IMG/VR virus record: IMGVR_UViG_3300014205_000206
Location: 20,059 to 84,058 of that record
Length of the DNA: 64,000 bases
Direction: 5' to 3' (one strand)
Origin: a virus
Lineage: Duplodnaviria; Caudoviricetes
Numbering within the stretch: position 1 is the stretch's first letter; each line of letters starts with the position of its first letter. Shown here piece by piece: positions 19,260-56,448 of this stretch. Position numbers and translations under genes: made by a program. The notes under the pieces were generated by a model that saw only the letters and a list, made by a program, of their open reading frames with translations, did not search any database and had not been told where the DNA came from.

Positions 19260-20384
19260 CTATGCTGCGTGGATGAGTACGTTGTCTCGGATAGCCGACG
19301 CCACAGCATGCATCATCAGCGGCGGTACGGCGTTTCCGAGGCGAGTCCAGCGCTCCGCGAATGTCCCGGTCATCTTGAAGTCGTCTGGGAACGAGCAAAT
19401 ACGCTTTACTTCGAGAATCGTGAACCTTCTTGGCTCGTATGGATGAGCAATACCATGCATTGTGGTGCATCCATGAGCTGCGTTGATGGTCGGGCAAGGG
19501 AACCGTTCGTCTACTCGCGTGCAGTTGAAGTTGATCGGGTGGTTGCTGCCAATCGGGCATTCGCGCCATGCGATCTTGCCGCTAACGCCCAATTCCATCT
19601 CCGCATGCTCGATTGGGTCTTCGCAGATAGGATGCTGTGTATCAATTCTTCGCTCTCCGTCTTTTCTTCCAATCCACGGGCATGCGTCGGAAACTGAGTA
19701 ATACCAGTCGTTTGGCGTCGGGTAACGGTTTATCTTGCCAACCTTCTGTATCACTTTTTTGGCAATGTCATTTCGAATTCCAACAAAAATGACCCGTTGA
19801 CGAGCTTGTGGAACACCCAACCACCTCGAATCGATGACAGCCGCTTGGGTGTCGTATCCAGCTTCCTTCATCCAAGCCAGAACCATCTTGAAGTAGCCTT
19901 TTGCGGCCCCTTTGATGAGTCCTGTGACGTTTTCGGCTACGAACGTTTTCGGCTGGAGTTCTTTGATGAGCCGGATGTACTCTTCAAATAGGTCATCTGA
20001 CCTTTGGTTAGTCCCGTCACCGTGCGCGAAGGTTTTACCCCAACCTTTTTCGCGTAGTCCCGTACTTGAAAACGATTGACAAGGAGGACTACCATCAAAC
20101 AGGTCCAATTCACCGTGCTTGATGCCAGTTGCTTCAAGGACGCTAGTCCCTTTGACAGTGCGGATGTCTCGGCCATCGGCAACGCACCCCTCTTGACAGT
20201 TCATTTTATAGGTTTTCAGGGCAGTTGGTTCAAATTCGTTTGCCCACCTAACATTGAACCCCGCAAGCCTATAGCCAGTGCAGGAACCGCCAGCGCCGGA
20301 AAACGTAGATGCAACGTTGAAACCCGTTGAACCTTCGTGCTCCAAAACGTCTTTCATCAAGAGAGGTACGTACTTTGGCTTCAC
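19260..20384 (-). CDS. DNA (cytosine-5)-methyltransferase
   Basis: FSGAGG (motif I), GSPPCQSFS (IV), ENV (VI), QARQR (VIII), GNAVPP (X); GTG start overlapping upstream stop. Confidence 0.95.
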   Translation of the reverse strand: MKPKYVPLLMKDVLEHEGSTGFNVASTFSGAGGSCTGYRLAGFNVRWANEFEPTALKTYKMNCQEGCVADGRDIRTVKGTSVLEATGIKHGELDLFDGSPPCQSFSSTGLREKGWGKTFAHGDGTNQRSDDLFEEYIRLIKELQPKTFVAENVTGLIKGAAKGYFKMVLAWMKEAGYDTQAAVIDSRWLGVPQARQRVIFVGIRNDIAKKVIQKVGKINRYPTPNDWYYSVSDACPWIGRKDGERRIDTQHPICEDPIEHAEMELGVSGKIAWRECPIGSNHPINFNCTRVDERFPCPTINAAHGCTTMHGIAHPYEPRRFTILEVKRICSFPDDFKMTGTFAERWTRLGNAVPPLMMHAVASAIRDNVLIHAA

Positions 20385-20908
20385 GACTGATTGGCCTTTC
20401 CTGACCACTGGAAGCCACACTTGGGGCATTCAAAGTCGGTCTTGATGCTTTCATCGACCGTTCCAAACTCCGCTGGCGGCTCAGGAGGCTCGATGGAGTC
20501 TACCAGGCGCTCGAATTCCTTGTCGGTCCATCCAACCAACTCTACACCGTCTGCTTGCAGCTGCGCCAAAAGCTCATTGAGCGCATGGGCATCCCAGGCG
20601 GACAGGTCGCTAGTCCTGTTGTCCGCGATAGCGAAAGCAATCGCGTCGTTGCCCGTCAACTCGGTCCTAACAATGTCAATGTACTCCCAACCGAGCTTGC
20701 GAGCTGCTTCTAGGGCACCGTTTCCGGCGATGACAACGTCATCCTTACCAACGACAATCGGCTTTTGCTGCCCGAATCGCTCTAGCGATTGGCAAATAGC
20801 AGCGAGGTTTCGTTCCGGATGGATACGTGCGTTTTTGGGGTCGTACTTCAGCGAATCCACATGGACTCGCTCGACAATCAAGGCTGTTTTGGATGTTTGT
20901 TCTGTCAC
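20381..20908 (-). CDS. ParB/Srx N-terminal-domain protein with C-terminal CPKC zinc ribbon
   Basis: LKYDPKNARIH, FGQQKPIVV, VIAGNG, IADNRTSDLSAWD; CPKCGFQW. Confidence 0.85.
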   Translation of the reverse strand: MTEQTSKTALIVERVHVDSLKYDPKNARIHPERNLAAICQSLERFGQQKPIVVGKDDVVIAGNGALEAARKLGWEYIDIVRTELTGNDAIAFAIADNRTSDLSAWDAHALNELLAQLQADGVELVGWTDKEFERLVDSIEPPEPPAEFGTVDESIKTDFECPKCGFQWSGKANQS

Positions 20909-25912: not shown

Positions 25913-26443
25913 ATGGAAAGCGTAATCGGAAACTGGTTTCTCACCTACACCGGAAAGAAAGTAGACCCTTTTCGGATGACAGCGGACGATGTGTGCATCG
26001 AGGATATCGCCCACTCATTGTCCCAAATATGCCGTTTCAACGGCCACTGCTGCGCGTTTTACAGCGTAGCGCAGCATAGTATCTACGTTGCATCCATCCT
26101 GCCGCCCGAGTTGAAATTCGTCGGATTGATGCACGATGCCACGGAGGCTTACTGTGGCGACATGATCCGACCCATCAAAGTGTCCATGCCTACCTACAAA
26201 AGTCTTGAATACGTCATCTGGCTAGCTATCGCGCAAAAGTATGACCTGCCAACCGAGCTTCCCAAGGAAGTCAAAGCCGCAGATAACTCCATGCTGATGA
26301 CCGAGCGCCGCGACCTGCTCAAGTGGACACCCGATGACTGGAACGTTCCGGAGCAACCGCAGGATTTTTTCGTCTACCCGAAACCGTCAAGGCAAGCAGA
26401 AGCCAACTTCTTGTCGTTCTTCCATAGGTTGCACAAGCCATGA
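25913..26443 (+). CDS. HD-domain phosphohydrolase (YfdR/5'-deoxynucleotidase-like)
   Basis: IEDIAHSLSQICRFNGH, YSVAQHS, LMHDATEAYCGD. Confidence 0.9.
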   Translation: MESVIGNWFLTYTGKKVDPFRMTADDVCIEDIAHSLSQICRFNGHCCAFYSVAQHSIYVASILPPELKFVGLMHDATEAYCGDMIRPIKVSMPTYKSLEYVIWLAIAQKYDLPTELPKEVKAADNSMLMTERRDLLKWTPDDWNVPEQPQDFFVYPKPSRQAEANFLSFFHRLHKP

Positions 26444-26916
26444 TCTCCGAATTCCAAGGTAAGTACCGATGGTTGTCTAATTTCTGGACGCTCAAAGTCC
26501 CTGTTGAATTCAATGGGGCCAAGTTCTACACGGTGGAGGTGGCTTACCAATCGGCGAAATGCTTACAGATAGAAGATTTCCGATGGATACAGCAGCTATC
26601 TCCCGGACAAGCAAAGCGCTACGCCAGAACCATGGTAGTGCGCGACGACTGGAACGATAGCCGAAAGCTTGAAGTCATGCGAATCCTTGTCTGCCAGAAG
26701 TTCTACAAAAACCGCGAGCTAGCTGAGTTGCTCGTTGAAACTGGCGATCAAAAGCTAGTAGAAGGAAATACTTGGGGAGACCGATTTTGGGGTGTCTGCA
26801 ACGGCGCAGGGGAAAATAACCTCGGCAAAATCCTGATGGAAGCGCGCTATTCACTGATTGAAGACCTTAACCGTGAGTGTGGCAACTTCGCTTTCGCTGA
26901 CTATGGTGACGAATGA
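26440..26916 (+). CDS. NADAR (YbiA-like) family protein
   Basis: YRWLSNFW, TVEVAYQSAK, PGQAKR, LVEGNTWGDRFWGVC, GENNLGKILM. Confidence 0.92.
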   Translation: MISEFQGKYRWLSNFWTLKVPVEFNGAKFYTVEVAYQSAKCLQIEDFRWIQQLSPGQAKRYARTMVVRDDWNDSRKLEVMRILVCQKFYKNRELAELLVETGDQKLVEGNTWGDRFWGVCNGAGENNLGKILMEARYSLIEDLNRECGNFAFADYGDE

Positions 26917-27092: not shown

Positions 27093-27283
27093 GCAATGAC
27101 CGATTCACCCTAGCTGCCATCGACAACCTTCTTGAAAACGGAGCGAAATTCCATTTCGAAGACCCCGTCGTGCAAAAAGAAGACGGAATGGTCGTCGTCA
27201 AAGACAAAGGGAAAATCATGCTGCTTATGTCCGAAACGGCGTGGCAAAAGCTGATTATGGTCCGACGCGATGGCAAAGAATGA
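27089..27283 (+). CDS. Hypothetical protein
   Basis: 64 aa, AAGGAG RBS. Confidence 0.6.
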   Translation: MSNDRFTLAAIDNLLENGAKFHFEDPVVQKEDGMVVVKDKGKIMLLMSETAWQKLIMVRRDGKE

Positions 27284-27639
27284 AAGTCATCGTCTGCGGC
27301 AGTCGCCACATCTCTCCATGGCTGTGGGTGCAAACCGTGAAGCACGAGCTGGTGAAGATGAAGGCGACAGAGGTGGTTTCCGGTGCCCAGCGGGGCGGCG
27401 ATCAGGCTGGTGAAATGGCTGCGAAGCATCTCGGACTCCCGGTCAAGCTGTTCCCCGCCGATTGGGACAAATACGGCTATGCCGCCGGTCCCATCCGCAA
27501 TAAGCAAATGGCGCTCTACGCCGATGCCTGCATCGCTCTACCAGGAGGAGTTGGAACCAATGGTATGGTGCGACTAGCCAAGGAGCACGGGCTCATCGTT
27601 GTTGAATTCGCGAAACTACCTACAGCGGACATCATTTGA
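27280..27639 (+). CDS. SLOG-family protein (YspA/DUF2493-like)
   Basis: MKVIVCGSR, VVSGAQRGGD, FPADW, AGPIRNKQM, PGGVGT. Confidence 0.88.
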   Translation: MKVIVCGSRHISPWLWVQTVKHELVKMKATEVVSGAQRGGDQAGEMAAKHLGLPVKLFPADWDKYGYAAGPIRNKQMALYADACIALPGGVGTNGMVRLAKEHGLIVVEFAKLPTADII

Positions 27640-29416: not shown

Positions 29417-29427
29417 GTAAGGTTGCA

Positions 29428-29450
29428 GGGTGGGAGAGAACGGGGTTGGG
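29428..29450 (+). other. Canonical G-quadruplex motif
   Basis: GGG-T-GGG-AGAGAAC-GGGG-TT-GGG. Confidence 0.5.
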
Positions 29451-29679
29451 CACTCCCACAGTACAAAGCTCAAACTTGGTCGCCGCACGGGAGAGTGGGA
29501 CCCCCTGCCGGGTCACACCCGAAAAAAATCATCGGTCCCCACCCCCACCTCCGGGGGGATAGTTAGCATAATGGTGCGCGTTTTAGCGCCTAATGTGGCG
29601 TCAACTAGTGTAAATACCGCGACGCTAACTATATAACCGAATGGTTATGCAACCTGGTGCATGGCATTGTAAATAGTTG

Positions 29680-29708
29680 TTGACATACCGGCGGCACCGT
29701 TCTAATAT
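29680..29708 (+). promoter_or_regulatory. Early sigma70 promoter P1
   Basis: TTGACA-17-TAATAT. Confidence 0.85.
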
Positions 29709-29760
29709 CTACATGTCGGACGGAACGAACCGCCCGCCATGCCGCATAGGATTCTAGACC

Positions 29761-30375
29761 ATGACCGCCACCCGCACCGCCCGCCGCACCGCCACCCCGC
29801 CCGCCGCCGATATCACCGTTCCGCCCGCCGCCGATATCACCGTTCCGCCCGCCGTTCCGCCCGTGTGCGACGTGTGCGCGCGGTACGCTAGCATTGCGGG
29901 AAACGTCACCCGCGACGGACACGTCTACGTCAACCGCGCGACCGTTCCGGAATGCAACGCCGACGTCGCGCGCGATCGCATCGCGAACGATACCGCGCGC
30001 GCCGCGCGTAACGTCGCGACGTCGGACCACGATCGCGCGGCCGCGAACGTCGCCGTGAAACGGACCGGTGACCGCGTATGGCGCACGCGCAACCCGCACG
30101 GTTTGGGCGGCACGGTCACCGCGACCCGCGCGACCCGGACCGCGCCCACCGTCACCGCGCCACCCGCGTACTATGCCGCGTGTGTCGCGACGGCGAACCG
30201 TTTCACGGCGGCGGGAATGGCGACGACGCCGGAACACGTCGCGGCCGAAATCGCCGCACACGTTGACGCGTTCATCGCGGGAATCAACGTTGACGCGGTC
30301 TACATGGACGCGTTCAACGCGAAAATTGCCGCGACGTTGGACGCGATCGCGACGTTGACGAACGCGACCGCGTAA
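29761..30375 (+). CDS. First early gene, Ala/Thr/Arg-rich protein of unknown function
   Basis: After P1 with AGGA RBS; 204 aa; 24-bp tandem repeat at 29797-29844 (PPAADITV x2); CDVC. Confidence 0.75.
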   Translation: MTATRTARRTATPPAADITVPPAADITVPPAVPPVCDVCARYASIAGNVTRDGHVYVNRATVPECNADVARDRIANDTARAARNVATSDHDRAAANVAVKRTGDRVWRTRNPHGLGGTVTATRATRTAPTVTAPPAYYAACVATANRFTAAGMATTPEHVAAEIAAHVDAFIAGINVDAVYMDAFNAKIAATLDAIATLTNATA

Positions 30376-30383
30376 CACAATCG

Positions 30384-30412
30384 GACGCGGGCCGCGCGTT
30401 GCGGCCCGCGTC
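30384..30412. promoter_or_regulatory. Perfect 12-bp hairpin without U-tract
   Basis: GACGCGGGCCGC-GCGTT-GCGGCCCGCGTC. Confidence 0.6.
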
Positions 30413-30447
30413 TATTCCACCCCACCCCTACTAGAACGGAGAACACA

Positions 30448-30642
30448 ATGCGGCCCGACATGACGATGCAGAAAGCGGAAGCCCTAGTTGCCAAAGCGGT
30501 GAGCGAAGTAGAGGCGGATGAGGCGTTTGCCCGATACGATGGGTTCGACGTTCGCGAATGGCGTATCGCGCGGCGTGAACGCGCCCGGCATGAACGCGCC
30601 ATGATCGAAACCGCGGACGGGATCGCGTTCCGCATGTCGTGA
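30448..30642 (+). CDS. Hypothetical early protein
   Basis: 64 aa, GGAG RBS. Confidence 0.7.
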   Translation: MRPDMTMQKAEALVAKAVSEVEADEAFARYDGFDVREWRIARRERARHERAMIETADGIAFRMS

Positions 30643-30654
30643 TCGGGTAGTAGT

Positions 30655-30684
30655 GCATCCCACGATCCGGTGATCGTGGGATGC
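30655..30684. promoter_or_regulatory. Perfect 13-bp hairpin without U-tract
   Basis: GCATCCCACGATC-CGGT-GATCGTGGGATGC. Confidence 0.6.
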
Positions 30685-30734
30685 GACGTTACCCGAAGCG
30701 ATAGCAAGTAAACCGCAGAGCAAAGGAGCAGACC

Positions 30735-30974
30735 ATGAAAGCACAGGCGTACGGAGTGAAGGCGGTCACGGTGGATGGCGCAAGGCGGCAAGAGCGGCTG
30801 GCCAGCATCAAGGCTGAGATCGCGGCGAGCCACAACGAAGTCATCAAGGGGGAACAGTCCATCGCCTTCGCCAAGGCGGACCGCAGGGCGGCAGTAAAGC
30901 GCCTCGACAGGGCGCGCAAGGAACTCGGAGCGTTCGTCGAAGTGAACATGGACTGCATCGAGGTGAAGTGGTGA
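30735..30974 (+). CDS. Hypothetical coiled-coil early protein
   Basis: 79 aa, AAGGAG RBS. Confidence 0.7.
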   Translation: MKAQAYGVKAVTVDGARRQERLASIKAEIAASHNEVIKGEQSIAFAKADRRAAVKRLDRARKELGAFVEVNMDCIEVKW

Positions 30975-31141: not shown

Positions 31142-31385
31142 GCGCGACGCGATCCGCACGATGGCCCAGGTCGAAGTTGACCTGGGCCTTTACTTTTGTG
31201 TCTCCTCGCTTTACTTACTTAACTCTCTTTTCCTATCTAACTTAGGCGTCTCCCGGCTTTACTTGGCTTGACTTGAAAGCGGCGAAGTGGCACACAAGTT
31301 GAATAGAGGCAATGCGGCAAGTAAAGCGGGGCGAGCGGTTGTGTGCAAAGTAAAGCGGGCGGCGGCAATCAAGCTAAAATAAGTG

Positions 31386-32358: not shown

Positions 32359-32940
32359 ATGTCCAAGAACAACCAGCAGCCGAAGCAGACCGCCGAAGTC
32401 GCCGCCACCGAGCAGACCGCTCCCGCCACCGAGCAGACCGCTCCCGCCACCGAGCAGACCGCTCCCGCCGCTCCGCGCCAGCCCATCGTGCTCGACATGG
32501 AGGCCATCGCGGCGCAGGAAGTCATCGTCGCGGATCTCACCGCCAAGCTCGAAGCGGCCAAGGCCGGCGGAAACGACCACGCCATCGCCGAAGCGAAGAA
32601 GATCCGCAAGGGCGCCACCGACAAGTTGTGGCGCTTGCAGAACCCCGGCGGCAAGGGTGGCACGCGCTCGCCCAACTCGCCCAAGGCCGCGAGCAACCCC
32701 AACACGCTCCACATCGCGCTTCCCGAAGCGACCGTCACGGCGCTCGACGCGGCCGTCGCCAAGTTCGCCCCGGTCGGGCTCGACCGCTCCGCCGCTCTGA
32801 ACATGGTCATCGAGAGCGCCACCGAGTCGATCCTCAAGTTCGACTCCGTCGAGTCCTTCGCCACCGGGCTGAAGGCTCTGCTCGACGCCAAGATCGCGGC
32901 CATGGTCGCGCTCCAGAGCGACCTCCTCGCCTCCAAGTAG
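32359..32940 (+). CDS. Early protein with C-terminal ribbon-helix-helix-like domain
   Basis: TLHIALP-EATVTALDAAVAKF-DRSAALNMVIESA; monocistronic between P3 and terminator. Confidence 0.7.
   Translation: MSKNNQQPKQTAEVAATEQTAPATEQTAPATEQTAPAAPRQPIVLDMEAIAAQEVIVADLTAKLEAAKAGGNDHAIAEAKKIRKGATDKLWRLQNPGGKGGTRSPNSPKAASNPNTLHIALPEATVTALDAAVAKFAPVGLDRSAALNMVIESATESILKFDSVESFATGLKALLDAKIAAMVALQSDLLASK
32404..32466 (+). repeat. 21-bp tandem repeat x3 (ATEQTAP)
   Basis: GCCACCGAGCAGACCGCTCCC x3. Confidence 0.95.
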
Positions 32941-55297: not shown

Positions 55298-55594
55298 ATG
55301 GGAAATGAGCCACAAAAACGGTACGGCAAAGATGCAAAACGAAAGGAAAAAGTTCAGGCACGAATGGCGCTAGCCGCTTCCGGTGTAAGCACAATAGCCA
55401 TCAGAAACAAGACAAGCAAAACCGATCAAGAATTTCTAGACTCGCTGATTGAAACGCTTCACGGCGTAGCCATTGGCCTCGATTCTCGGGACCTAACTGG
55501 CATAGCCGACTTGGACAGATTCATCGAGGCGCGGAAGCTGTCGTTCAGAATCCACAGGAAGTTCGTTACCGCAAGGGGAACTGGATCGAAATGA
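55298..55594 (+). CDS. Hypothetical protein
   Basis: AAGGAG RBS. Confidence 0.65.
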   Translation: MGNEPQKRYGKDAKRKEKVQARMALAASGVSTIAIRNKTSKTDQEFLDSLIETLHGVAIGLDSRDLTGIADLDRFIEARKLSFRIHRKFVTARGTGSK

Positions 55595-56448
55595 TGAAAC
55601 CGAAACCGAAGCCAATCCCGCAAAAAAAGCAAATCGTCACCTCTGGAACCACGCAGTACATCCCGCTCAAACGCCTATTCATCGATCCGCAAGTGCAGCG
55701 TGCGCTCAAGGAGAAGTGGGTAGATCGGTTGGTGCGGGACTTCGATCCGGACCTGCTTGACATTATCAGCGTCTCGGATCGAGGGAACGGAACGTACGCA
55801 GTGATCGACGGACAGCACAGAGTCGCAGCCGTCCGCCGTTTGTTTGGCGACGACAACCAGATGATCGAGTGCAAAGTAAGCAAAGGACTCCAGCTCCACG
55901 AAGAGGCGGCACGCTTCGTCGGGAAAGCCGAAACGCTCGGTATGGCGCCAACTGTCAAGTTCATGCAGAAAGTCAAAGCACGGGACAGGGAAGCCTTGGC
56001 GATTGACGGAGTCGTCCGGGAGTGCGGCTACAAAGTGGCTCAGTATTCTGGCGACGGGGTTCTTTCCTGTGTTAGCTCGCTCAGAAATGTTTATCGTGGC
56101 TTCGCGAATGACGACAAAGCCGAGAATCCAGCCCTGTTGAAGCAAACGCTCATCGTCATTCGGTCTACTTGGGGGAATGCGTCCTCCGGGTTGCACTCGA
56201 TGATCGTGGTCGGCATCGGCAGGCTGATTGCGGGTCGCTCCAAGGCAATTTCCTACCCCGACCTTATCGCCCGTATGGCGGCGTTTCCGGGGGGCGCTGG
56301 CGGCATTCTAGGGCGCGCTAGGGGCCTTCAGGCGCTAGTTGGTGGGTCAGTGCCAGCCGCAGTGGCAGACGTAATCATCGACATCTACAACAAAGGTAAA
56401 AGACAAAACAAGCTTGAACCTCTTCGAAAGGCAGGAGAAGCTTCATAG
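55591..56448 (+). CDS. ParB/Srx-like DGQHR-domain protein (DUF6551-like)
   Basis: LFIDPQVQR, FDPDLLDIISVS, VIDGQHR. Confidence 0.8.
   Translation: MMKPKPKPIPQKKQIVTSGTTQYIPLKRLFIDPQVQRALKEKWVDRLVRDFDPDLLDIISVSDRGNGTYAVIDGQHRVAAVRRLFGDDNQMIECKVSKGLQLHEEAARFVGKAETLGMAPTVKFMQKVKARDREALAIDGVVRECGYKVAQYSGDGVLSCVSSLRNVYRGFANDDKAENPALLKQTLIVIRSTWGNASSGLHSMIVVGIGRLIAGRSKAISYPDLIARMAAFPGGAGGILGRARGLQALVGGSVPAAVADVIIDIYNKGKRQNKLEPLRKAGEAS

What the first reader, a model, noticed from the sequence alone, without database searches (positions are those of the whole stretch)
29552..30797. Early DNA free of VAG/CTB trinucleotides, with the whole first gene recoded to obey it
Seen: from 29657 to 30438 (782 nt, very GC-rich) I found no AAG, CAG, GAG, CTT, CTG or CTC; only TAG/CTA occur. 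From 29552 the single exception is the CTG at 29654, in a CCTGG. Plus-strand CTG/CTC/CTT stay absent until 30798, and a second VAG-free patch spans 30523-30695. In gene 29761..30375 every Leu is TTG, every Glu GAA, every Lys AAA, there is no Gln, and its RBS is AGGA rather than GGAG. Nearby early gene 32359..32940 freely uses CTC/GAG/AAG/CAG. Dozens of these triplets would be expected by chance at this base composition. Established: T7 and T5 keep restriction sites out of first-entering DNA until protective proteins are made. Inference: this is the first-injected DNA, selected to be invisible to a host system that reads a very short AG-containing motif (a PAM, an R-M/BREX-like site, or a base-modification context), and the first gene may neutralise that system. 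The E. coli type I-E PAM set fits imperfectly because ATG is retained.
Basis: partly seen in the sequence, partly recalled or inferred. Interest (0 to 1): 0.87.

Follow-up and report, generated by a model that had tools for sequence, protein, structure and literature searches.

The report
Trinucleotide-free first early phage operon
A 1.2-kb stretch at the head of a metagenomic phage's early genes has been kept free of the three-letter DNA words AAG, CAG and GAG (strictly on one strand, nearly so on the other) across many diverged relatives, which points to a still unidentified cell or phage factor that reads this very short motif.

Summary
Window 29655-30438 (785 nt, 67% GC) holds no AAG/CAG/GAG/CTT/CTG/CTC, against 71 expected. 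The longest such gap elsewhere in the 84-kb genome is 67 nt. Shuffling only the order of gene 1's own codons gives 13.2±2.4 motifs, never fewer than 4 in 20,000 trials. So codon choice, tRNA supply and amino-acid content do not explain it.

All related loci from other metagenomes keep the desert, although gene 1 proteins are only about 50-60% identical and about 30% of possible point changes would create a motif.

New points:
- The rule holds in the diverged, untranscribed promoter DNA (0 against 29 expected), so it acts on DNA, not only on mRNA.
- It is strand-polar. Plus-strand CTB (VAG on the template strand of promoter P1) is never seen over 1.1-1.3 kb, through gene 2 and into gene 3. Plus-strand VAG leaks 1-3 times in some lineages.
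- A distant homologue uses AAG/CAG/GAG freely, so the recoding is derived.

Best reading: selection hides the first early operon from a DNA-level reader of VAG. That this DNA enters first could not be tested. Gene 1 has no recognisable family or fold.

The parts
29550..29658 (.). Nearly invariant non-coding element upstream of promoter P1. The desert begins here. AG and CT occur only as TAG and CTA, apart from one CCTGG.
   Evidence: Alignment of six lineages; motif positions.
29652..29656 (+). Conserved CCTGG holding the single CTG exception. It is the left edge of the strict plus-strand CTB-free zone.
   Evidence: CCWGG is otherwise five-fold depleted genome-wide (41 observed, 205 expected).
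29680..29708 (+). Promoter P1, TTGACA-17-TAATAT, the first of four consensus sigma-70 promoters on the plus strand.
   Evidence: Both hexamers are conserved in all relatives. The diverged spacer and upstream DNA hold 0 motifs against 29 expected in 7 lineages.
29655..30438 (.). Core desert: no VAG and no CTB on either strand (784 nt, 67% GC, CpG-rich).
29496..30438 (+). Plus-strand VAG-free zone, between the GAG at 29493 and the GAG at 30439. It has 0 leaks here and 1-3 in some relatives.
29657..30797 (+). Plus-strand CTB-free zone, meaning no VAG on the strand that templates P1 transcription. There are no leaks in any relative.
29761..30375 (+). Gene 1, 204 aa, an orphan protein rich in Ala, Thr, Val, Arg and Pro. 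It is recoded, with amino-acid replacements as well (Lys 2, Glu 3, Gln 0, Leu 3). It has a conserved CxxC...H...C stretch and a KRTGDRVWRTRNPHGLGG core.
   Evidence: No Pfam, PHROG or fold match.
30384..30412 (.). GC-rich hairpin after gene 1, a weak terminator or attenuator.
30439..30522 (+). Island where plus-strand VAG is dense (9 in 84 nt) and CTB is still absent. It covers the GGAG ribosome-binding site and the first 25 codons of gene 2.
30448..30642 (+). Gene 2, 64 aa, conserved (73-92% identity). Its Leu codons are only CTA or TTG in every lineage.
30523..30695 (.). Second patch free of both motif sets. It ends at the foot of a hairpin with 25-nt arms (30643-30696).
30735..30974 (+). 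Gene 3, 79 aa. The CTB-free zone ends at its codon 22 (CTG at 30798).
31163..31188 (+). Terminator-like hairpin with a T run. It is the likely end of the P1 transcription unit.

Best explanation
The head of the early region is kept free of the trinucleotide VAG as read on either DNA strand. This covers a conserved upstream element, promoter P1, gene 1, gene 2 and the start of gene 3. Continuing purifying selection on the DNA sequence maintains it.

Exclusion is absolute on the strand that templates P1 transcription. That means no CTT, CTG or CTC on the plus strand for 1.1-1.3 kb. Exclusion is nearly absolute on the other strand over the promoter and gene 1.

The most likely purpose is to make the first transcription unit untouchable by a factor that recognises this 3-nt word on DNA and then blocks transcription or damages the strand carrying it. 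My favoured version is an innate nickase or base modifier with very frequent sites. A Cascade-type PAM reader is the alternative. Either way the products of genes 1 and 2 are made whatever happens to the rest of the genome. These fast-evolving orphan proteins are then the candidate countermeasure.

Shown: the avoidance, its uniqueness, its conservation under heavy divergence, its DNA-level nature, its strand polarity, and the derived recoding.

Inferred: Of the 0.5 given here, about 0.3 goes to an innate reader and 0.2 to the PAM version.
For: (1) Zero motifs in 784 nt against 71 (base composition), 23-42 (synonymous resampling) and 13.2 +/- 2.4 (same codons, shuffled order).

(2) This is the top outlier among all 2- to 4-mers genome-wide, with nothing comparable elsewhere. 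Motif density elsewhere is at or above expectation, with sharp edges.

(3) All related loci from independent data sets (ENA, Logan, NCBI) keep it, at about 50-60% gene 1 protein identity. Synonymous codon differences number 40-57 per pair, and third-position changes dominate. About 30% of all possible single-base or synonymous changes would create a motif.

(4) Pooled over 7 lineages: CTT 0/44, CTC 0/117, GAG 1/82, CAG 2/108, AAG 4/48 (observed/expected). TAG and CTA were not among the depleted words.

(5) DNA level: the diverged promoter and upstream DNA, which lies before the predicted start site, holds 0 motifs against 29.3 expected. All 16 AG dinucleotides there are TAG and all 6 CT are CTA.

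(6) Polarity: no plus-strand CTB leak in any locus, while there are 1-3 plus-strand VAG leaks in L002, L005, L006 and L012. The CTB-free zone runs about 360 nt further along the operon. Gene 2 uses only CTA or TTG for Leu yet uses VAG freely.

(7) The distant homologue L016 uses VAG freely. It still has only 2 sense-strand CTB against 6.6 +/- 1.6 expected.

(8) Precedents. Motifs in the leading region decide sensitivity to restriction in T5-like and T7-like phages (PMC10644984, PMC12455610). DNA enzymes that read RAG or AG exist (PMC3017599). Cascade represses from either strand at a promoter, but inside a gene only when it targets the non-template strand, with the PAM written CTT/CTC on that strand (PMC4288209). 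That is the same polarity as seen here.
Against: - No reader with VAG specificity is known in bacteria, and the host is unknown because the genome comes from a metagenome.
- A cutting enzyme would still destroy the rest of the genome, where VAG is plentiful. So the model needs reversible damage, a transcription-only block, or stepwise DNA entry, and none of these is shown.
- The avoidance reaches 130-170 nt upstream of the -35 hexamer, where a pure transcription block should not matter.
- Plus-strand VAG avoidance in gene 1 goes beyond what a template-strand model requires.
- Genes 1 and 2 have no similarity to any anti-defence protein.
- For the PAM version: ATG and CAT are retained, CAG and CTG are excluded, and TAG is tolerated. 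That is unlike the E. coli I-E set. Selection on each single PAM should also be weak, whereas the avoidance is total.
Confidence: 0.5

Rival explanations
1. PAM-free countermeasure operon, a special case of the best explanation. The host carries a type I-E or IV-like CRISPR system whose PAM set is VAG. The operon, perhaps encoding an anti-CRISPR, has lost every PAM, so no spacer can silence or cut it before its product is made.
For: The motif has PAM size and includes AAG and GAG, the hallmark I-E PAMs. AGG and CCT are also nearly absent. The polarity equals that of Cascade repression: both strands at the promoter, and only CTT/CTC on the non-template strand inside genes (PMC4288209). The model explains why only one operon is protected. 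Gene 1 evolves fast and assemblies often break inside it.
Against: ATG (9) and CAT (11) are retained. CAG and CTG are excluded and TAG is tolerated, unlike E. coli I-E (from my own knowledge of PAM screens). Genome-wide PAM depletion reported in phages is weak (PMC4246573), whereas the avoidance here is total. The motif is also avoided well upstream of the promoter. The direction of Cas3 travel predicts the opposite strand pattern in the flanks. No helix-turn-helix regulator was found in genes 2-4.
Confidence: 0.2
2. The desert marks the physical leading end of the virion DNA, or a terminal repeat starting near 29550. It enters first and sits alone in the cell, as in T7 (about 850 bp) or T5 first-step transfer. 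It is compatible with the best explanation and would explain why the avoidance is local.
For: The desert begins abruptly at about 29550, next to G- and C-tracts and a nearly invariant element. The strongest early promoter lies about 130 nt downstream, the layout of phages with terminal repeats. The length of about 1.25 kb is of the T7 order. The phage shares T5-like traits: a dmp-like phosphatase, 26 tRNAs, homing endonucleases and a siphovirus tail. The literature shows that only motifs in the leading region matter (PMC12455610, PMC10644984).
Against: There is no evidence on termini. Contigs of relatives run through the site (L001, L002, L003, L005, L006, L011). The deposited ends are an assembly branch. 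Terminase and portal genes lie about 11 kb away. The dmp-like gene lies upstream of the desert, not inside it.
Confidence: 0.25
3. RNA-level cause. The first early mRNA must survive an endoribonuclease that cuts at CUB (and VAG). This could be a host toxin of the mRNA-interferase kind or the phage's own shut-off RNase. It would resemble ACA-less transcripts under MazF.
For: The strictest rule is on the sense strand and follows the transcript through gene 2 into gene 3. The distant homologue keeps only the sense-strand CTB depletion. The phage is heavily invested in RNA and tRNA upkeep: 26 tRNAs, a CCA-adding enzyme and an exoribonuclease-like protein.
Against: The rule holds in diverged promoter DNA upstream of the predicted start site (0 against 29) and in the element further upstream. 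The antisense orientation is also excluded across gene 1. No minus-strand promoter was found.
Confidence: 0.1
4. Self-immunity. The phage itself makes a very frequent-cutting nuclease or nickase that destroys host DNA early, as in T5 or the chloroviruses. The DNA that must work during that phase carries no sites.
For: Frequent-site nickases that read R^AG, with a cognate AG methylase, exist in chloroviruses (PMC3017599). The phage has a T5 dmp-like 5'-deoxynucleotidase and several GIY-YIG nucleases just upstream. It explains total avoidance at every single site.
Against: The rest of the phage genome is full of VAG and would need protection. Only a C5-cytosine methylase was found. No candidate nuclease is identified. 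Stepwise entry is not shown.
Confidence: 0.1
5. A cis-acting DNA function such as a replication origin or packaging region needs a stretch where a trinucleotide-reading enzyme cannot start. An example is a DnaG-type primase, which initiates at CTG-like triplets.
For: Primases are the classic readers of trinucleotides (from my own knowledge). The two strand-specific zones are offset, as expected for outward-moving polymerases. An almost invariant non-coding element sits at the left edge.
Against: No iterons, DnaA boxes or significant structure were found. There is no known reason to forbid priming over 1 kb. The pattern follows gene and promoter features.
Confidence: 0.07
6. Mutational footprint rather than selection. 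A single-strand-specific deaminase acts on C in the CTB context of the displaced strand of the most heavily transcribed early DNA and has eroded the motif. This would resemble APOBEC footprints in early genes of animal viruses (PMC8115780).
For: There is strand polarity, with the non-template strand strictest. The expected products are enriched (TTG 83 observed against 33 expected; GAA, AAA).
Against: The region is the most GC-rich nearby (67% against 54%), not AT-enriched. Motifs are absent even where removing them changes amino acids. Untranscribed promoter DNA obeys the rule. The same end state follows from selection.
Confidence: 0.04
7. Ordinary causes: chance, base composition, foreign origin, or codon adaptation to tRNA supply before the phage's own tRNAs (Glu-CUC, Lys-CUU, Gln-CUG, Leu-UAG) are made.
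For: Codon choice accounts for part of the effect: 23-42 motifs expected under normal usage against 13 with the actual codons. The phage carries tRNAs for exactly the avoided codons.
Against: The codon-order shuffle never gives fewer than 4 motifs. Out-of-frame, antisense and non-coding DNA all obey the rule. Another GC-rich early gene uses the motifs freely. The pattern is conserved in all relatives.
Confidence: 0.01

Closest known systems
Absence of restriction sites from the first-entering DNA of T7-like and T5-like phages (Murciavirus and the Mme2I type I system, PMC12455610; BF23/T5 terminal repeats, PMC10644984)
   Same: A defence-recognised DNA motif is locally absent at the head of the early region. 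That region carries strong host-type promoters and variable first genes, while the motif is common elsewhere in the genome.
   Different: Here the word has 3 nt with one degenerate position. It would occur about every 10 nt, so a whole gene and its protein had to be rewritten. The avoidance is strand-polar. Whether this DNA is a leading end is unknown. The phage is an unrelated 84-kb siphovirus known only from metagenomes.
PAM depletion in phages facing CRISPR (PMC4246573; P. aeruginosa I-F, PMC12174588), and the strand rules of Cascade repression (PMC4288209)
   Same: The motif is short (2-3 nt). AAG and GAG are I-E PAMs. The polarity equals that of Cascade-mediated repression.
   Different: Published depletion is weak and genome-wide, whereas this one is total and local. 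ATG is retained, CAG is excluded and TAG is tolerated.
Chlorovirus frequent-site nicking and methylation systems (Nt.CviQII R^AG with M.CviQII, which methylates AG; PMC3017599)
   Same: They show that strand-specific DNA enzymes reading an almost identical 3-nt word exist and are used in virus-host conflict.
   Different: They are eukaryotic algal viruses. Protection there is by methylation, not by avoidance. The specificity is RAG, not VAG. No homologue was sought or found here.
Transcripts lacking the cleavage triplet of an mRNA interferase (ACA-less mRNAs under MazF; from my own knowledge)
   Same: A triplet is completely removed from a gene by synonymous recoding.
   Different: That effect is at RNA level and on the sense strand only. 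Here promoter DNA and the antisense orientation obey the rule as well.
Sequence-specific DNA ADP-ribosylation by DarT toxins and its reversal by NADAR (PMC11543638, PMC11125620)
   Same: Short-motif lesions on a DNA strand block replication and transcription. This phage encodes a NADAR protein 3.3 kb upstream.
   Different: DarT2 motifs centre on T (TNTC). DarT acts on single strands. No link to VAG is shown.

Membership tests
Leading-region restriction-motif avoidance (T7/T5/Murciavirus type) | The motif-free stretch lies at the DNA end that enters the cell first | not testable with these tools
   The deposited ends are an assembly branch. Public runs are held only as contigs.
Leading-region restriction-motif avoidance (T7/T5/Murciavirus type) | The stretch carries host-polymerase early promoters and the first genes | tested here: met
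   P1 is the first of four TTGACA-17 promoters and is conserved in relatives. This rests on consensus matches only.
Leading-region restriction-motif avoidance (T7/T5/Murciavirus type) | The motif is common elsewhere in the same genome | tested here: met
   One motif per 9.4 nt genome-wide, at or above expectation in every other 1-kb window.
Leading-region restriction-motif avoidance (T7/T5/Murciavirus type) | The avoided word is the site of a known host restriction system | not testable with these tools
   The host is unknown (landfill metagenome). I know of no bacterial system with VAG specificity.
CRISPR type I-E PAM depletion | All interference-proficient PAMs of the system are depleted (E. 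coli set CTT, CCT, CAT, CTC; PMC4288209) | tested here: not met
   CTT 0, CTC 0 and CCT 1, but CAT 11 and ATG 9. The non-PAM pair CTG/CAG is also 0.
CRISPR type I-E PAM depletion | The strand pattern fits where a PAM would allow Cascade to repress | tested here: met
   Both orientations are absent at the promoter. Only plus-strand CTB is absent in genes 2 and 3. Compare PMC4288209.
mRNA-interferase-proof transcript | Avoidance is confined to the transcribed strand of the transcribed region | tested here: not met
   Promoter and upstream DNA hold 0 motifs against 29 expected. The antisense orientation is excluded in gene 1.
Deaminase (APOBEC-like) mutational footprint | Loss of the target motif comes with a gain of its product and a shift towards A+T | tested here: inconclusive
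   TTG is enriched 2.5-fold, but the region has 67% GC against 54% for the genome.
DNA-mimic anti-restriction proteins (Ocr/ArdA), for gene 1 | A strongly acidic protein with family or fold similarity | tested here: not met
   17 acidic against 20 basic residues. No Pfam, PHROG, PDB or BFVD match.
acr-aca type operon | A helix-turn-helix regulator gene follows the inhibitor gene | tested here: inconclusive
   Genes 2-4 have no Pfam match. They are short helical proteins, and this was not examined further.

The most novel reading that the evidence does not exclude
Bacteria, or this phage, possess a so far undescribed DNA-level system that reads a three-base word (VAG) and acts on the strand carrying it, by nicking or base modification. 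This phage lineage answers by writing its first promoter and genes in a restricted DNA vocabulary that lacks the word. The protein sequence was reshaped as a result (almost no Lys, Glu, Gln or Leu). The first gene products are then inhibitors of that system.
Probability: 0.3. Interest if true: 0.92.

Novelty: new variant of a known kind. Interest (0 to 1): 0.82.

Why it matters
Local avoidance of 4-8-nt restriction sites in leading DNA is known. Total exclusion of a 3-nt degenerate word is, as far as I could find, not described. Here it is strict enough to dictate codon order, the form of the ribosome-binding site and the amino-acid make-up of a protein, and it is conserved across diverged lineages.

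It works as a footprint of an unknown reader. The hypothesis can therefore be tested with reporters and defence panels.

It also suggests a general search tool. Local k-mer deserts at the head of early regions could reveal the specificity of defence systems directly from phage sequence.

Tried and rejected
- **Phage and viral collections.** DNA and protein searches of the phage collection found no relative of the locus. The large terminase subunit is under 47% identical to anything there. IMG/VR and JGI metagenome scans with genes 1 and 2 found nothing.
- **Termini.** An ORF that is open, stop to stop, across the joined ends was inconclusive. The end turned out to be an assembly branch.
- **Sequencing runs.** No RNA holder was listed and all runs are contigs. 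Laying four runs showed diverged relatives in wastewater, freshwater and wood-decay metagenomes, but no molecule ends.
- **RNA families and structure.** Rfam gave only an insignificant PtaRNA1 match. The fold of 29417-29720 is no better than shuffles, z = -0.5. No iterons or boundary repeats were found.
- **Gene 1 function.** The structure model is mediocre (pLDDT 65). There was no PDB, BFVD or ESM Atlas match. A profile search of 1.8 billion proteins gave only the family itself and one distant homologue.
- **DarT1.** No consensus motif is known for it, so the NADAR link stays circumstantial.
- **Antisense ORF 29629-30378.** It is a trivial consequence of gene 1 having no TTA, CTA or TCA codons, so I rejected it. 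L004 carries a TTA codon, which on the alignment should put a stop in that frame.
- **TA-free early gene 32359-32940.** This is mostly explained by its codon set.
- **Literature.** Searches for a VAG PAM found nothing relevant.
- **Earlier findings of this scan.** They held only another reading of this same stretch.
Full report
**Setting.** The window is bases 20059-84058 of a single 84,058-bp contig with 54% GC. The only public run that holds most of it is a landfill metagenome. The contig is a tailed phage:
- a 2,230-aa tape-measure protein, a T4-type large terminase and a portal on the minus strand;
- 26 tRNA genes;
- a C5-cytosine methylase;
- on the plus strand just left of the finding, an SNF2 helicase, GIY-YIG/NUMOD3 homing endonucleases, a T5 dmp-like nucleotidase, a NADAR protein and a SLOG protein.

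Four consensus sigma-70 promoters (TTGACA-17-TAnnnT) follow on the plus strand at 29680, 31386, 32237 and 33227. The finding sits at the first of them, P1.

**The observation.**
- Between the CTG at 29654 (in CCTGG) and the GAG at 30439 there is no AAG, CAG, GAG, CTT, CTG or CTC.
- Plus-strand CTB is absent until 30798.
- Plus-strand VAG is absent from 29496 to 30438, and again from 30523 to 30695.
- TAG and CTA occur at the expected rate.
- Base composition predicts 71 motifs in the 784-nt core. Synonymous resampling predicts 23 (usage of another GC-rich early gene) to 42 (usage of the large genes).
- Shuffling only the order of gene 1's own codons gives 13.2 ± 2.4, and never fewer than 4 in 20,000 trials.

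So the rule governs codon junctions and the antisense strand, not only codon choice. The longest gap elsewhere in the genome is 67 nt. GC-rich windows elsewhere hold at least 70 motifs. Every other 1-kb window is at or above expectation. An unbiased scan of all 2- to 4-mers ranks AAG/CTT, AG/CT, GAG/CTC and CAG/CTG at this locus as the strongest gaps in the genome.

**Relatives.** Protein searches with gene 1 and gene 2 found relatives in ENA, Logan and NCBI metagenome assemblies. Twelve loci were fetched.
- Every locus that covers the region has the desert in the same place.
- The plus-strand CTB-free zone measures 1,116-1,302 nt in the full-length loci and has no exception at all.
- Plus-strand VAG is absent over the promoter and gene 1, with 0-3 leaks.
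- The 81-99-nt island of plus-strand VAG at the start of gene 2 and the second patch behind it are also conserved.
- Gene 1 proteins are only about 50-60% identical to the window's. Lineage pairs differ at more than 100 of about 190 codons, with 40-57 synonymous differences and a clear third-position excess. Gene 1 is therefore a real protein gene under purifying selection.
Its absence after this much divergence therefore requires continuing selection.
- Pooled over seven lineages the counts (observed/expected) are CTT 0/44, CTC 0/117, GAG 1/82, CAG 2/108 and AAG 4/48. CTG is 3/89, and these are copies of the boundary CCTGG. TAG and CTA were not among the depleted words.

**Derived recoding.** A profile search of 1.8 billion proteins found one distant homologue. 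Its contig, L016, has the same gene 1-gene 2 order. That homologue is rich in Lys, Glu and Gln and uses AAG ×10, CAG ×5 and GAG ×2. The window's clade has Lys 2, Glu 3, Gln 0 and Leu 3 in 204 residues. The vocabulary restriction therefore reshaped the protein and is a derived state. Even L016 has only 2 sense-strand CTB against 6.6 ± 1.6 expected (P = 0.002). That points to the sense-strand CTB rule as the older and stricter part.

**DNA or RNA?** The stretch between the conserved CCTGG and the end of the -10 hexamer lies before the predicted start site. It is only about 50-90% identical between lineages, conserved hexamers included. In 350 nt from seven lineages there are 0 motifs against 29.3 expected. 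All 16 AG dinucleotides are TAG and all 6 CT are CTA. The nearly invariant 110-nt element further upstream (29550-29658) obeys the rule too, except for the CCTGG. No minus-strand promoter was detected. The constraint is therefore most simply one on DNA. Gene 1's ribosome-binding site is built as TAGGA or TGGGA, whereas gene 2 uses GGAG.

**Polarity.** The orientation that is never tolerated is CTB on the plus strand, which is VAG on the strand that templates P1 transcription. It is excluded through gene 1, through gene 2 and into gene 3. In gene 2 the same Leu position switches between CTA and TTG in different lineages. All leaks are plus-strand VAG. A reader that treats both orientations of a site alike would not produce this. 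Something that depends on direction would: transcription, a lesion or nick on the strand carrying the word, or an R-loop roadblock. For E. coli Cascade without Cas3, repression works from either strand at a promoter. Inside a gene it works only when the non-template strand is targeted, with the PAM written CTT/CTC on that strand (PMC4288209). That matches the map seen here. The match to that PAM set is imperfect: ATG and CAT are kept, CAG and CTG are lost, and TAG is tolerated. Total avoidance is also more than weak selection on single PAMs would be expected to give.

**First-injected DNA?** This could not be tested.
- The deposited contig has no terminal overlap.
- An ENA contig ends at the very same base, but a Logan contig continues there with different sequence. 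The end is therefore an assembly branch, not a terminus.
- Only contigs of public runs are available.

The abrupt start of the desert at about 29550, beside G- and C-tracts and about 130 nt before the strongest early promoter, would suit a terminus or a repeat boundary. Contigs of relatives run through the site, as they also would for concatemers. I give this 0.25.

**Genes 1 and 2.** There are no Pfam or PHROG matches. The gene 1 model is mostly helical with pLDDT 65 and matches nothing in PDB, BFVD or the ESM Atlas. Gene 1 is not acidic, so it is not an Ocr-like DNA mimic. Its function is unknown. Being first, fast-evolving and protected makes it a candidate counter-defence, but that is inference only.

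**Conclusion.** The phenomenon is real, unique in the genome, conserved, DNA-level and strand-polar. The best explanation (0.5) is selection to keep the first early operon out of reach of a DNA-level reader of VAG. I give 0.3 to an innate reader and 0.2 to a PAM reader. Lesser rivals are an RNA-level nuclease (0.1), self-immunity to a phage nuclease (0.1), a cis-acting replication or packaging function (0.07), a deaminase footprint (0.04) and ordinary causes (0.01). The leading-end idea (0.25) is compatible with the best explanation rather than exclusive of it.

Noticed in passing
whole genome (G000): CCWGG is five-fold depleted (41 observed, about 205 expected). GATC is not depleted (1.35x), and CTAG (0.62x) and GGCC (0.61x) are mildly so. 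Yet one CCTGG is strictly conserved 26 nt upstream of the -35 hexamer of P1.
   Followed up: partly
window 29550-29658: A 110-nt non-coding element upstream of P1 is almost invariant across six lineages. It is far more conserved than gene 1 or the promoter spacer. It has inverted repeats (ATAGTTAGC/GCTAACTAT) and two copies of TGTAAATA. There is no Rfam match and no significant fold.
   Followed up: partly
window 32359-32940: The GC-rich early gene behind promoter P3 has a single TA dinucleotide (its stop codon) in the window. Relatives have one or two (about 13-15 expected from composition). Codon-order shuffles give only 2.7-5.5, so this is mostly a matter of codon content.
   Followed up: yes
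genome 7216-11019 (left of the window; locus L013): There are 26 tRNA genes, including the C34 isoacceptors Glu-CUC, Lys-CUU and Gln-CUG. The two Leu tRNAs have anticodons UAG and CAA, which read exactly the Leu codons (CTA, TTG) that genes 1 and 2 use. The two tRNA-Gln genes are 88 nt long.
   Followed up: partly
window 64000 (genome end) and L014:3707-4044: The deposited contig ends at an assembly branch. A Logan contig continues with a T4_Y16D-family gene that is absent from the start of the deposited genome, so the record may lack a segment or represent one of several strains.
   Followed up: partly
window 29761-29870 and relatives: The N-terminus of gene 1 holds variable Pro/Thr/Ala repeats (a PPAADITV duplication here, PPTPP runs in L005 and L011). 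Many short metagenome contigs break inside gene 1, which suggests a hypervariable region.
   Followed up: partly
window 26440-26916 and 27241-27639: A NADAR-domain protein (a family shown to remove ADP-ribose from guanine in DNA) and a YAcAr/SLOG protein lie in the block upstream of the desert, beside a dmp-like nucleotidase.
   Followed up: partly
L016:1-200 and 1020-1120: The distant relative carries arrays of short repeats (CCATTTTGGCA-like and GCCGCATTGCG-like) on both sides of its gene 1-gene 2 pair. They are possibly regulator binding sites.
   Followed up: no
window 55591-56448: A protein with a DUF6551 domain and a weak GmrSD_N (ParB/Srx-like) match lies in the early/middle block. A second ParB_N-like protein sits next to the C5 methylase (20381-20908, minus strand).
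   Followed up: no
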